DNA of 64,000 bases from Trypanosoma brucei (Eukaryota), in NCBI GenBank assembly GCA_000002445.1, contig CH464491.1, forward strand, positions 4,864,001 through 4,928,000, in the 5' to 3' direction. Made by a program: the position numbers. Positions 40,101 to 43,100 of the stretch are shown here, piece by piece. The number at the start of each line of letters is the position of its first letter. Positions within the stretch are counted from its first letter, which is position 1.

Positions 40101-43100
40101 NNNNNNNNNNNNNNNNNNNNNNNNNNNNNNNNNNNNNNNNNNNNNNNNNNNNNNNNNNNNNNNNNNNNNNNNNNNNNNNNNNTGGGCGCCTGGAGTATGC
40201 GTACCGACAATCANTGTTCCCTGAAGGAAGCTGCTGGCTCTTGGCTTCTTTGATGATACGGGGTACTGGATCTCTGACACCACGTTGAGGTGGCCGGCAT
40301 CGCCAGGGTATGAAGCAAAATTTTTTTTTAATTTTCTTCGTGCCTTCGTGAGAGTTTCTCCCAACTGGCGCGGCCATCAGCCATCACCGTAGAGCCCTGA
40401 GATGCTATCGGTCTGGCGACTGTGGCAGAGTCTCCCTTTTTTATTCATCCTAACACACCCTCTATAATTTTTGTTGTAGCTCCGCAGTTGAACGGAATAC
40501 AGTAGATGGGGCGAGAAGCCCCCCTCACCCCGGACTCTCCCAAAGATGTCAATTAGCAATCCTTTTGTTTTGTTTTTTGTTATTCGTTTATTATTCTCTC
40601 CCCCTCTTTCTGTTTCTGTTTTTGTTGCTTGTTGACTGCATACCTCCTCTGTCTCTGAGGGTGTCTGGACTATTCCTGCGTCCGGTGCTTTTCCTGCTGG
40701 CTCCACACTCGGCAATAAGGGGGGAAGTTGCAGAAGGGAGAGTGGGTTGTATGACTGTTACCTTAGGTGAGGACTTCACCTGCGGCCGGCTCCGTTCAAC
40801 CGCAATGAGAAACTGCGCCAGCCTTTTGGAGAAACATACATCCTGCACACACTCACCTTCTACCGCAAATCTGACACGTAACTCCTTCAAACCGGGACAG
40901 CTCATCAAGTGCAGCGACGTTTCTTCGCAGTCGCCGCGTTGGCTGGTAACAGCGCGCTCTACCTTCATACCGTGCATCTTCTTTTGATGTAGGGTGAGGC
41001 CAGTTTTGCTAGCACACTGCCTTCCGCATGTCGGGCACACCAACATGGATGTGTTTGTATGCGGGGAATCAGTGGCACACAATTTTGTGCTTTTGCTGCA
41101 TTTAAGCTCGACTCCCTCACCTTTGTGGAAAGCCTTACAGTGTCGGATGAGGGAGTCCCTGCAACTGAGCACTTTTTGGCACACACCACACTGCACCTCG
41201 CCTTTCGCCGGGACGTCAAAAATTTCCCTCACGGGCACGCTTACGAGGGAATTGCACCACCACGGTACCGTCCTCCGTCACTATGCTTTTATGTTTGAAT
41301 TTCTTGTGTAGTGACAGGGAAGAGCGTGTACCGAAGCTCGCCTCGCACAGGTCACATTGAAACGGCAGCTTCCGTGTATCCTGAGGGGCTGGCGGTGCTG
41401 GGGCTCTACCATCTCCTTGCAATGAGTCTTCGTTCTCTCGCCCCCTTTTCACGCGGCAACTACCGCTGCCTATGCCATGTATTGTTCTAAGGTGGTGTAA
41501 TAGTCGGCCTGGCACTGCGAATTTGGAGGTACAGAGGGTACAATGAAGCACCTGCGGTCTCATCGGGACTCGTGTGCTCGACGGTAGAGGAACGATCGCC
41601 ACCACTGGAGGGGGCTCCAGGGGGATATCCACTATAGGTGTTGCATCGCCGTATTTGATCTTTCGAAGGGCATCAGCTCGCATAAAGCCATGTTTGCTTA
41701 CCATATGCGTTACAGCACTCGAGCGGCATTGGTATGTGGCATCACATTCCGTACATTTGGTCGGTTCGGAGGTTCTCTGAAGAGTGCGTGTCACAACAGT
41801 TGGGACCGTTTGTATTGTTGGTCCTATCGCTGCATGTTGCGGGTTACACCATCGGCACTGTGGAGGCACACTCGAATTGATCTTTCGCAACATCCATCCA
41901 TAGTGCCTTGAAGACCCAACCCGAAAGCGTGCCAGTGCCGTTTCTTCTTCCCTCGTCAGTTCTTCTTTATGTTTTGTTGGAAAGTGGTTGCCCGTGATAC
42001 CAAACCTATGAGTGTTCTCATAGACTTCTTCCGACCTAAGCACTCGCTTCGCATAAGCAATGATGTCGGGGATCAATGTGTCTCGCAACTGTGGTAAATC
42101 TGCGGCCTTTTTCGCCATGTCATCGCAAACCTCATTCTGTTTCACGCCACAATGGACAAACACAAATTGCAGTCGTATACGCACCTTTCTTCTCTGAACT
42201 TGAAGCAGAAGCCTCCATAGTCGTCTTAGAATTGGGTCCGTTGCGGCTAGGGGGCTTGTCTGCAGTACTGTTAACATTGACAGCGAGTCAGAGAAGATGG
42301 ACAACCTGCTCGGTGTGGTTCTGTATGCCGGAAGCCATTTCAGCAGCCGTTGCAGTCCTATCTCTAATGCTACGCATTCCGCTCTGTAACTGAATGAGAG
42401 TTCCCCTGCTCCGGTCTTGGGTGCACAAATCAGCGTGTTGTTTCTATAGAGCAGGGCAGCTGCTCCGGACTTCTCACCGAGGGACACGGATCCATCAGTC
42501 CACAATTCGTAGTGCTCTCGTCACGGTGGCTCCTTCCCTCTCCGTGCAAAATGCCGTGCAATCCACTTTTCGGAAGCCTCCCTTTTGACATCTTCAGGGT
42601 CATCAGCGCACACAGGCTTTATCTGCGTGTGAAATAGCGGTCGGCAGCTGTGGCGGAGCGTCGATGTCTCTAGTGGGTGCTCGCGTGGCTCAATGCGGAG
42701 GTGGGGATAGGACCGCATGATACGGGAATGTAGGGCTCTGACTGGGTGTTTGCTGTGGTATACTTCTTCAGCACTGCGCCGCAAACATCCGCCTCGTGAC
42801 TCACACATCAGCATGAATTTCATGCTGCGTACAAGAGTGGTCGTCTTGAGTGGCAGGAGGTTTGCTTCCAGCAGAGAGTCCTCTTTGCGCGTCCCATGCG
42901 GTATGCCGGCTATGATGTGACTGGCTTTGTGTTGCGTTGCTGCAAGGAGGTCACGACTTCGTTTTGAAGCGTCCCAGTACCATACCTCAATCCCATACAT
43001 GGTGTGTGCCTGTACGATTACTAGATAAAAAGCTCTCAGTACTTGTCGTCTTGGCCCCCATGTAGAAGCTGAGATGGCTGCTATCTGCAGTAGTCTGAAG

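What the first reader, a model, noticed from the sequence alone, without database searches (positions are those of the whole stretch)
40183..40345. Tandem ingi/RIME 5' termini at one site, abutting a scaffold gap at a convergent strand-switch
A second ingi/RIME 5' terminus lies on the plus strand at 40215..40308 (..cacgttgaggtggccggcatcgccaggg). It sits 12 nt from the A9 tail of the full ingi and has the same orientation. Its body disappears into the 100-N gap at 40083..40182, which also truncates the plus-strand VSG at 38864.

This implies one of two histories: two successive insertions into the same hotspot, or an ingi inserted just upstream of a pre-existing RIME/ingi.

The junction coincides with the convergent point between the plus-strand VSG block (22-40 kb) and the minus-strand block (45-64 kb). 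Because repeated retroelements are where assemblies break, the true structure here is uncertain, for example the copy number of the tandem elements.
Basis: partly seen in the sequence, partly recalled or inferred. Interest (0 to 1): 0.55.

Follow-up and report, generated by a model that had tools for sequence, protein, structure and literature searches.

The report
Head-to-tail ingi retroposons beside assembly gap
The first ~126 bases of a second ingi-type retroposon lie directly behind a complete one in a Trypanosoma brucei surface-antigen gene array, next to a hole in the published assembly; such back-to-back pairs are a documented habit of these elements, so the finding is real but ordinary.

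Summary
The window is T. brucei brucei TREU927, from a 5.26-Mb record in a subtelomeric VSG array. A 5,256-nt degenerate ingi ("A") runs 45576→40321 on the MINUS strand. Twelve nucleotides after its A9 run begins a second ingi/RIME 5' terminus ("B", 40308→40183, also minus). B runs into a 100-N gap.

Head-to-tail ingi-clade pairs separated by only a 12-bp target-site duplication (TSD) are described as frequent in T. brucei (Bringaud et al. 2011). This is therefore already known.

New details:
- **TSD of A.** The spacer is not repeated upstream of A (3/12). Instead, A's upstream 12-mer matches A9+TTT at 10/12 (P≈0.003). A may have landed 9 bp upstream of B with its own TSD.
- **Quality of B.** B sits on a poor contig end, with a single N and about nine 1-nt deletions. 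Its apparent degeneracy is unreliable.
- **Gap content.** A 99.9%-identical T. equiperdum contig runs 2.3 kb into the gap. It shows the rest of the VSG pseudogene, then another plus-strand VSG interrupted by an ingi/RIME 5' end in the OPPOSITE orientation. The gap is therefore large, and the 38864 VSG probably does not abut the pair.

Interest is low.

The parts
40183..40308 (-). Element B. This is the 5' terminus of an ingi-clade retroposon (RIME, ingi or a degenerate relative): the 79-nt Pr77 signature plus about 45 nt. Its body lies in the gap.
   Evidence: - 31-mer exact match.
- 90% identity to ingi nt 1-79, alignable to about nt 125.
- Closer to ingi/RIME than to the window's DIRE.
- Single N at 40214 and about nine 1-nt deletions towards the contig end.
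40309..40320 (-). 12-nt spacer TTTTGCTTCATA (minus strand). It is the upstream target-site copy of B. Its first TTT may also be the end of A's downstream TSD copy.
   Evidence: - Exactly 12 nt, read directly.
- Fits the xTxTxxT part of the published ingi4 target signature at 3/3 positions.
40321..45576 (-). Element A. This is a full-length but degenerate ingi of 5,256 nt, including the terminal A9 at 40321-40329.
   Evidence: - Pfam Exo_endo_phos_2, RVT_1, RNase_H and zf-C2H2.
- 3 in-frame stops and 1 frameshift; 2A-like GDVEENPSP motif.
- 5' junction identical in T. equiperdum contig L002.
45577..45588 (-). 12 nt upstream of A, AATAGAAAATTT on the minus strand. This is the candidate upstream TSD copy of A.
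   Evidence: - Matches AAAAAAAAATTT (40318-40329 on the minus strand) at 10/12; null P(>=10/12 at any of 10 offsets) = 0.0028.
- Matches the spacer at only 3/12.
- Scores 2/10 against the ingi4 target signature.
40083..40182 (.). Assembly gap of 100 N, a placeholder of unknown true size.
   Evidence: - N run located.
- T. equiperdum contig L001 continues 2,289 bp beyond 40082 with sequence absent from the window.
38864..40082 (+). B-type VSG pseudogene truncated by the gap.
   Evidence: - Pfam VSG_B.
- Two in-frame stops.
- First 234 aa identical to a T. equiperdum protein.
45700..46989 (-). Degenerate minus-strand VSG pseudogene. Its 3' flank abuts the 5' end of ingi A.
   Evidence: - Pfam VSG_B on two ORF pieces.
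- Frameshifted.

Best explanation
Positions 40183-45576 hold two ingi-clade non-LTR retroposons head-to-tail on the minus strand of a T. brucei TREU927 subtelomeric VSG array.

**Mechanism.** Each element arrived by target-primed reverse transcription. The element-encoded endonuclease nicks the bottom strand. The exposed 3' OH primes cDNA synthesis on the A-rich 3' end of the RNA. A second nick 12 bp away then produces the 12-bp target-site duplication (TSD).

**History.** The downstream element B came first. Only its first 126 nt are assembled, so whether it is a RIME, an ingi or a relic is unknown. Its upstream TSD copy is TTTTGCTTCATA. The 5.26-kb ingi A landed later, 9 bp upstream of B's 5' end, in the sequence ...GCA|AATAGAAAATTT|TGCTTCATA-B. 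It duplicated AATAGAAAATTT. The downstream copy is now merged with, or partly overwritten by, the A-tail and reads AAAAAAAAATTT. The 12-nt distance from the A-run to B's 5' end (3 + 9) is then partly a coincidence.

**What is shown and what is inferred.**
- Shown: the anatomy, the strand, the domain content and the 10/12 repeat.
- Inferred: the order of insertion and the mechanism.

**Context.** The pair borders an unsized assembly gap. It is an ordinary, previously described kind of arrangement. I put about 0.85 on 'ordinary tandem of two independent insertions' and about 0.4 on this exact sub-model.
For: - **Elements.** Three ingi/RIME 5' termini lie on the minus strand. A carries APE endonuclease, RT, RNase H and zinc-finger domains.
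- **TSD of A.** The 12-mer upstream of A matches the 12 nt immediately after A's unique 3' end at 10/12. The null is P=0.0028 over 10 offsets. It matches the spacer at only 3/12.
- **TSD of B.** The spacer fits the T positions of the ingi4 TSD at 3/3.
- **Literature.** The TSD is always 12 bp in the clade. [quoted passage not shown]
- **Age.** A's 5' junction is identical in T. equiperdum OVI (L002), so the arrangement is old and not a TREU927 assembly quirk on that side.
- **Order.** As read, B is more diverged than A or C, with 10% divergence over the signature against 1-5%. This fits B being the older element.
- **Adjacency.** Inference: two of the four ingi-clade 5' termini in 64 kb lying within 20 nt in the same orientation would be about 1e-3 by chance.
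Against: - The 10/12 TSD leaves A with no separate poly(A) tail, unless 5 nt of the target copy were replaced by tail A's.
- The test was devised after seeing the sequence.
- A's target scores only 2/10 against the published ingi4 signature, and the reconstructed target of B only about 4/10 (and hand count).
- The exactly 12-nt spacer is what the canonical same-site model predicts, and here it has to be partly coincidental.
- B's 3' end and downstream TSD are in the gap, so B's TSD cannot be verified.
- B's greater divergence may be sequencing error.
Confidence: 0.4

Rival explanations
1. This is the canonical same-site tandem (X-A-X-B-X). After B inserted, the recognition motif plus the 12-bp target was regenerated upstream of B. 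A inserted at exactly the same position, so the 12-nt spacer is the shared TSD. Later, homologous recombination or gene conversion with another ingi copy replaced A's 5' part and its upstream flank. That event erased the upstream X and possibly created the convergent junction between the two VSG arrays by inversion.
For: - The spacer is exactly 12 nt, the invariant TSD length. It fits xTxTxxT at 3/3.
- The literature describes precisely this picture: 'only separated by a TSD'.
- A's upstream flank is a poor ingi4 target at 2/10, as expected if it is not an insertion junction.
- A sits exactly where gene orientation flips.
Against: - The upstream copy of X is absent at 3/12.
- The model needs one extra event for which there is no direct trace.
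- It leaves the 10/12 match of A's upstream 12-mer to A9+TTT (P about 0.003) as coincidence.
Confidence: 0.3
2. This is an assembly artefact. The last few hundred bases of the right-hand contig (B, the spacer, and the ingi 3' end shared by hundreds of RIME/ingi copies) come from low-quality or misplaced reads of another ingi/RIME junction. The tandem would then not exist at this locus.
For: - B lies in the terminal 126 nt of a contig. It has an N at 40214 and about nine single-base deletions in nt 80-126 relative to ingi.
- The opposite contig end shows the same decay. Its only 2 differences from T. equiperdum in the last 1,000 nt fall within the last 18 nt.
- Unique sequence on this contig starts only at 45577, 5.4 kb from the gap.
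- About 470 copies of the signature exist per genome (PMC12975129).
Against: - The first 31 nt of B, the spacer and the A-tail read cleanly.
- TREU927 was finished from mapped clones (own knowledge).
- Such junctions are common, so nothing about it is implausible.
Confidence: 0.12
3. B is not a RIME or ingi. It is a solo or degenerate 79-nt signature relic, such as a TbSIDER2-like or orphan signature, next to which an ingi happened to land.
For: - B shows 10% divergence over the signature, against a median of 4% for RIME and 8-18% for TbSIDERs.
- 29 of 51 non-annotated signatures in TREU927 have no retroposon-like sequence downstream (PMC2323293).
- As read, B cannot form the P1 and P4 helices of the HDV-like ribozyme fold. 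Its minimum free energy is -15.5, against -28.6 and -30.5 kcal/mol for C and A.
Against: - B remains alignable to ingi/RIME beyond nt 79, to about nt 125, whereas TSIDER1 shares only the signature.
- The divergence is confounded by contig-end quality.
Confidence: 0.1
4. A and B were copied together. A read-through transcript running from A through the spacer and B was reverse-transcribed as one unit and inserted here. AATAGAAAATTT would then be the TSD of the composite.
For: - As read, B's ribozyme is crippled, which would allow an uncleaved A-B co-transcript. This is an inference from PMC4035085.
Against: - The upstream 12-mer is a poor ingi4 target at 2/10.
- It would leave the 10/12 match at A's own 3' end unexplained.
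- There is no precedent in the papers read.
Confidence: 0.03

Closest known systems
Tandem (head-to-tail) arrangements of ingi-clade retroposons separated only by the 12-bp TSD (Tbingi/TbRIME, L1Tc/NARTc, Tvingi/TvSIDER1; Bringaud et al. 2004, 2006, 2011)
   Same: Both elements have the same orientation. The upstream element ends in an A-run. Exactly 12 nt then precede the CCCTGG start of the next element. The spacer carries the T pattern of the ingi4 TSD.
   Different: The spacer is not repeated upstream of the upstream element (3/12). An alternative imperfect TSD (10/12) suggests an insertion offset by 9 bp. The downstream element's 3' end is unassembled.
Pr77 hallmark / L1TcRz-type HDV-like ribozyme at the 5' end of L1Tc/ingi-clade elements (Sanchez-Luque et al. 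2011, 2014)
   Same: B starts with the conserved 77-79-nt signature. In copies A and C the nested P1/P3/P4 helices are predicted. In a tandem, such a ribozyme would cut a read-through transcript exactly at B's +1.
   Different: As read, B has changes in the P1 3' strand (G to A and +1 nt) and in the P4 3' strand (GGGG to AAA), and it loses half the folding energy. No Rfam model exists for this ribozyme. Activity was not tested.
RIME (about 500-bp non-autonomous partner of ingi, made of the ingi 5' and 3' ends)
   Same: B shares the 5' sequence common to RIME and ingi.
   Different: Only 126 nt are available. RIME and ingi cannot be told apart before about nt 250.
Retroelement-associated strand-switch regions and synteny breaks in trypanosomatid genomes (own knowledge; recombination of ingi/RIME stated in Jackson et al. 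2010)
   Same: Both orientation switches of the VSG blocks in this window carry ingi-clade elements: a DIRE at about 15.1-18.9 kb and the ingi pair at 40.2-45.6 kb.
   Different: There is no direct evidence here that the elements caused the switches.

Membership tests
ingi/RIME (ingi4 subclade) retroposon: element B | Conserved 5' 79-nt signature starting with CCCTGGCGATGCCGGCCACC | tested here: met
   Exact 31-mer match. 90% identity over nt 1-79.
ingi/RIME (ingi4 subclade) retroposon: element B | Sequence homology to ingi/RIME beyond the signature, which distinguishes it from SIDER1, DIRE and orphan signatures | tested here: inconclusive
   B is alignable to about nt 125 and is closer to ingi than to the window's DIRE. 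However, there are many 1-nt gaps and an N at a contig end.
ingi/RIME (ingi4 subclade) retroposon: element B | A-rich 3' tail and flanking 12-bp TSD | not testable with these tools
   The 3' end lies in the gap at 40083-40182. The T. equiperdum contigs break at the repeats.
ingi/RIME (ingi4 subclade) retroposon: element B | Upstream ingi4 target signature AxxxxxxxTxxxGTxGGxTxxx^xTxTxxTxxxxx | tested here: inconclusive
   The TSD part fits at 3/3. The 22-nt upstream part is occupied by A's tail. Reconstruction under the 9-bp model gives about 4/10, against a background P(>=4) of 0.27.
ingi (autonomous-type, full length): element A | About 5.2 kb with 5' signature, APE endonuclease, RT, RNase H, zinc finger and A-tail | tested here: met
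   5,256 nt with Pfam hits to all four domains. A9 tail present. The ORF is broken by 3 stops and 1 frameshift, so the copy is not autonomous.
ingi (autonomous-type, full length): element A | Flanked by a 12-bp TSD | tested here: inconclusive
   AATAGAAAATTT against AAAAAAAAATTT is 10/12, P about 0.003. The downstream copy overlaps the A-run.
Canonical same-site tandem (X-E1-X-E2-X) | Same orientation, with the elements separated only by 12 bp | tested here: met
Canonical same-site tandem (X-E1-X-E2-X) | The same 12-mer repeated upstream of the first element | tested here: not met
   TTTTGCTTCATA against AATAGAAAATTT is 3/12. TTTTGCTTCATA occurs nowhere else in the window.
Canonical same-site tandem (X-E1-X-E2-X) | The same 12-mer repeated downstream of the second element | not testable with these tools
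   That position lies in the gap.
HDV-like ribozyme (L1TcRz type) in Pr77 | Nested P1/P3/P4 helices with cleavage at +1 | tested here: inconclusive
   P1, P3 and P4 are predicted in copy C and in part in A. In B, P1 and P4 are lost as read. There is no Rfam family, and catalysis is not testable.

The most novel reading that the evidence does not exclude
The gap may hide an inverted, tail-to-tail cluster of ingi-type elements exactly where two VSG arrays converge. This rests on the T. equiperdum contig, in which a plus-strand VSG is interrupted by a plus-oriented ingi/RIME. In TREU927 that element would face the minus-oriented pair B-A across the gap. Such a multi-kilobase inverted repeat would explain why the region could not be cloned or assembled. 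It could also be the recombination substrate that produced the strand switch, and a local source of double-stranded RNA and siRNA.
Probability: 0.2. Interest if true: 0.3.

Novelty: already known. Interest (0 to 1): 0.1.

Why it matters
It matters little beyond bookkeeping. The result confirms that this junction in the TREU927 reference is a standard ingi-clade tandem. It also flags three practical points for users of the reference:
- The 100-N gap stands for several kilobases, including at least one more VSG.
- The 126 nt right of the gap are low-quality sequence.
- The convergence point of the two VSG arrays is inside the gap, not at the visible junction.

If the inverted-cluster reading were true, it would give a concrete locus for testing whether ingi elements mediate inversions between VSG arrays.

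Tried and rejected
- **Exact look-ups of three intact VSG proteins** in the contig index found nothing. Provenance came from the cluster look-up instead.
- **Rfam.** No family reached threshold in the window or at the Pr77 region.
- **Extending the gap content.** A homologue search with the T. equiperdum-only VSG returned only that protein and a 78% EATRO1125 VSG.
- **Sampling other ingi 3' junctions.** A homologue search with the ingi C-terminal region returned nothing, so no empirical base rate of tandems or tail lengths was obtained.
- **Paralogous 'empty site'.** A search for ...AATAGAAAATTTTGCTTCATA... in the window, L001 and L002 found none.
- **Key papers.** Bringaud 2004 (MBE) and 2009 (Eukaryot Cell) are not held. 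The target signature was taken from the 2011 paper.
- **B as a DIRE.** Rejected, because B aligns better to ingi than to the window's DIRE.
- **B as TSIDER1.** Rejected, because B has homology beyond the signature.
- **B and the T. equiperdum element E as the same junction.** Rejected, because the flanks differ (8/12 in the TSD and nothing upstream).

Full report
**Provenance and setting.** Two intact VSG proteins encoded in the window (32376-33887 and 58666-60231) are identical to EAN80663/XP_829775 and EAN80665/XP_829777. Both belong to Trypanosoma brucei brucei TREU927 on a 5,261,801-bp record. By size this is chromosome 11 (own knowledge). Pfam places A- and B-type VSG genes and pseudogenes as follows:
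- minus strand at 0.5-11 kb
- plus strand at 22-40 kb
- minus strand at 45.6-64 kb

The window is therefore a subtelomeric VSG array of the published reference genome.

**The observation.** The ingi/RIME 5' 31-mer occurs three times with at most 1 mismatch, against 0 expected. All three copies are on the minus strand, with 5' ends at 40308 (B), 45576 (A) and 56297 (C).
- **Element A** runs from 45576 to 40321 (5,256 nt). It encodes endonuclease, RT, RNase H and zinc-finger domains. Its frame is broken by three in-frame stops and one frameshift.
- **The junction.** A ends in A9 (T9 on the plus strand, 40321-40329). Exactly 12 nt follow (40309-40320, minus-strand TTTTGCTTCATA), and then B starts.
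- **Element B** is 90% identical to ingi over nt 1-79 and about 87% over about 100 nt. It stays alignable up to the contig edge at 40183.
- **The gap.** A 100-N run occupies 40083-40182, and there is a lone N at 40214.
- **The left flank.** The plus-strand B-type VSG starting at 38864 has two in-frame stops and is cut by the gap.

Every factual element of the finding is thus present. The only correction is that the elements are encoded on the minus strand.

**What is known.** Bringaud et al. 2011 (PMC3820030) make four relevant statements:
- The TSD of ingi-clade retroposons is invariably 12 bp.
[quoted passage not shown] They arise from independent insertions at the same relative position, because the endonuclease recognises the same target.
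- The Tbingi/TbRIME (ingi4) target signature is AxxxxxxxTxxxGTxGGxTxxx^xTxTxxTxxxxx.

The first 77-79 nt (Pr77) act as an internal promoter and, in RNA, as an HDV-like ribozyme cutting at +1 (PMC4035085). The finding is therefore an instance of a described phenomenon in a published genome.

**Testing the same-site model.** A canonical tandem is X-A-X-B-X.
- The spacer X fits the three T positions of the TSD part of the signature.
- The 12 nt upstream of A (AATAGAAAATTT) match X at only 3/12. A's 34-nt upstream region scores 2/10 against the signature, which is below the window median.
- By contrast, AATAGAAAATTT matches the 12 nt that immediately follow A's unique 3' end (AAAAAAAAATTT, that is A9 plus the first TTT of the spacer) at 10/12. 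Only 0.28% of window 12-mers reach 10/12 at any of ten offsets.

This supports a simple history without extra events. B was already present downstream of the minus-strand VSG pseudogene. A then inserted 9 bp upstream of B and duplicated AATAGAAAATTT. The first five bases of the downstream copy are masked or replaced by tail A's.

The rival is a true same-site tandem whose 5' flank was later exchanged by ingi-ingi recombination. Such recombination is known in T. brucei (PMC2854126). This model explains the exact 12-nt spacing and A's poor target. It needs an additional event and treats the 10/12 match as chance. I rate the two at about 0.4 and 0.3. B's 3' end, which would decide between them, lies in the gap.

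A's 5' junction is identical in T. equiperdum OVI. Contig L002 matches window 52654-45527 at 99.4-99.97% and ends 50 nt inside A with the same C10 variant. Whatever happened therefore predates the divergence of these strains.

**Quality of B.** In nt 80-126, B differs from ingi mostly by about nine single-base deletions plus an N. The errors increase towards the contig end. The opposite contig end behaves the same way: its only two differences from T. equiperdum in its last 1,000 nt are at 40065 and 40071. The outer part of B therefore looks like a poor read end.

Inside the signature, B has G-to-A-type changes: C32T, an inserted A, G-to-A, and GGGG-to-AAA. As read, these abolish the P1 and P4 helices of the HDV-like layout that copy C shows. 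The minimum free energy is -15.5 kcal/mol for B, against -28.6 (C) and -30.5 (A). If real, B is an old, ribozyme-dead copy. Its 10% divergence compares with a RIME median of 4% (PMC2323293). If the changes are errors, B is an ordinary RIME or ingi. B is closer to ingi/RIME than to the window's DIRE.

**What is in the gap.** The VSG pseudogene's first ORF is identical to a T. equiperdum OVI protein.
- **Synteny.** Its contig L001 (CZPT02000546.1, 10,945 bp) matches window 31374-40082 at 99.6-99.9%. It then continues for 2,289 bp that are absent from the window.
- **Content of the tail.** This tail holds three features:
  - the rest of the pseudogene
  - the VSG 3'-UTR 16-mer TGATATATTTTAACAC
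  - a further plus-strand A-type VSG (ATG at 10027)
- **Element E.** The further VSG is interrupted at L001 10924 by an ingi/RIME 5' end in PLUS orientation. The contig stops there. The 34 nt upstream of this element score 6/10 against the ingi4 signature, with a background P(>=6) of 0.03.
- **Implication.** If TREU927 is syntenic, the 100 N hide at least four items:
  - 2.3 kb of unique sequence
  - element E, of 0.5 or 5.2 kb
  - whatever follows E
  - the body of B
- **Consequences.** The 38864 VSG would not adjoin the pair, and the strand switch would lie inside the gap. Elements of both orientations would face each other there, which is a plausible reason for the cloning and assembly failure (inference).
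- **Limit.** Further extension failed.

**Verdict.** The feature is real, non-random and correctly recognised, but it belongs to a well-described class in a well-studied genome. The added value is the corrected strand, the TSD analysis, the quality caveat and the partial view into the gap. Novelty: already known. Interest: about 0.1.

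Noticed in passing
window 56048-56309 (minus strand): A 5'-only ingi/RIME fragment covers nt 1-242 and is 95% identical to ingi A. It has no 3' half and no poly(A). It is flanked by 12-nt direct repeats, TGATAATGGGGA and TGATAATGGGAA, and preceded by a good ingi4 target (GTAGG..., 6/10). The 3' junction shares TGAT with ingi nt 239-242. 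This suggests either reverse transcription primed internally on UGAU or a microhomology-mediated deletion.
   Followed up: partly
window ~15101-18870 (plus strand): A degenerate ingi-related element (DIRE) gives Exo_endo_phos_2 and RVT_1 hits. It is 27-39% identical at the protein level to ingi A and has a decayed Pr77 signature. It sits at the divergent switch between the minus-strand VSGs (0.5-11 kb) and the plus-strand VSGs (22-40 kb). Both strand switches in the window therefore carry ingi-clade elements.
   Followed up: partly
L001 10912-10945 (T. equiperdum OVI CZPT02000546.1): An ingi/RIME 5' end in plus orientation interrupts an A-type VSG at about codon 299. Its 12-nt upstream TSD, TAGTGCTTCACT, shares 8/12 in register (core TGCTTCA) with the spacer upstream of B. 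The rough chance is 0.005-0.03, and the match is unexplained.
   Followed up: partly
window 30772-30871: A second 100-N gap lies inside 70-bp-repeat-like arrays. Repeat hits fall at 27648-28262 and 30926-31442.
   Followed up: no
window 45300-45345 (minus strand; ingi A nt ~232-277): A 2A-like peptide motif, LLSGDVEENPSP, lies in the ingi 5' region. It has S instead of the canonical G before the final P.
   Followed up: no
window 34730-34851 and 48388-48484: There are length polymorphisms between TREU927 and T. equiperdum OVI in otherwise 99.4-99.9% identical intergenic sequence. They measure 122 nt against 71 nt, and 97 nt against 10 nt.
   Followed up: no
window 40040-40082: The left contig end carries its only two differences from T. 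equiperdum in the last 1 kb within its final 18 nt, at 40065 and 40071. This indicates low-quality sequence at both gap edges.
   Followed up: yes
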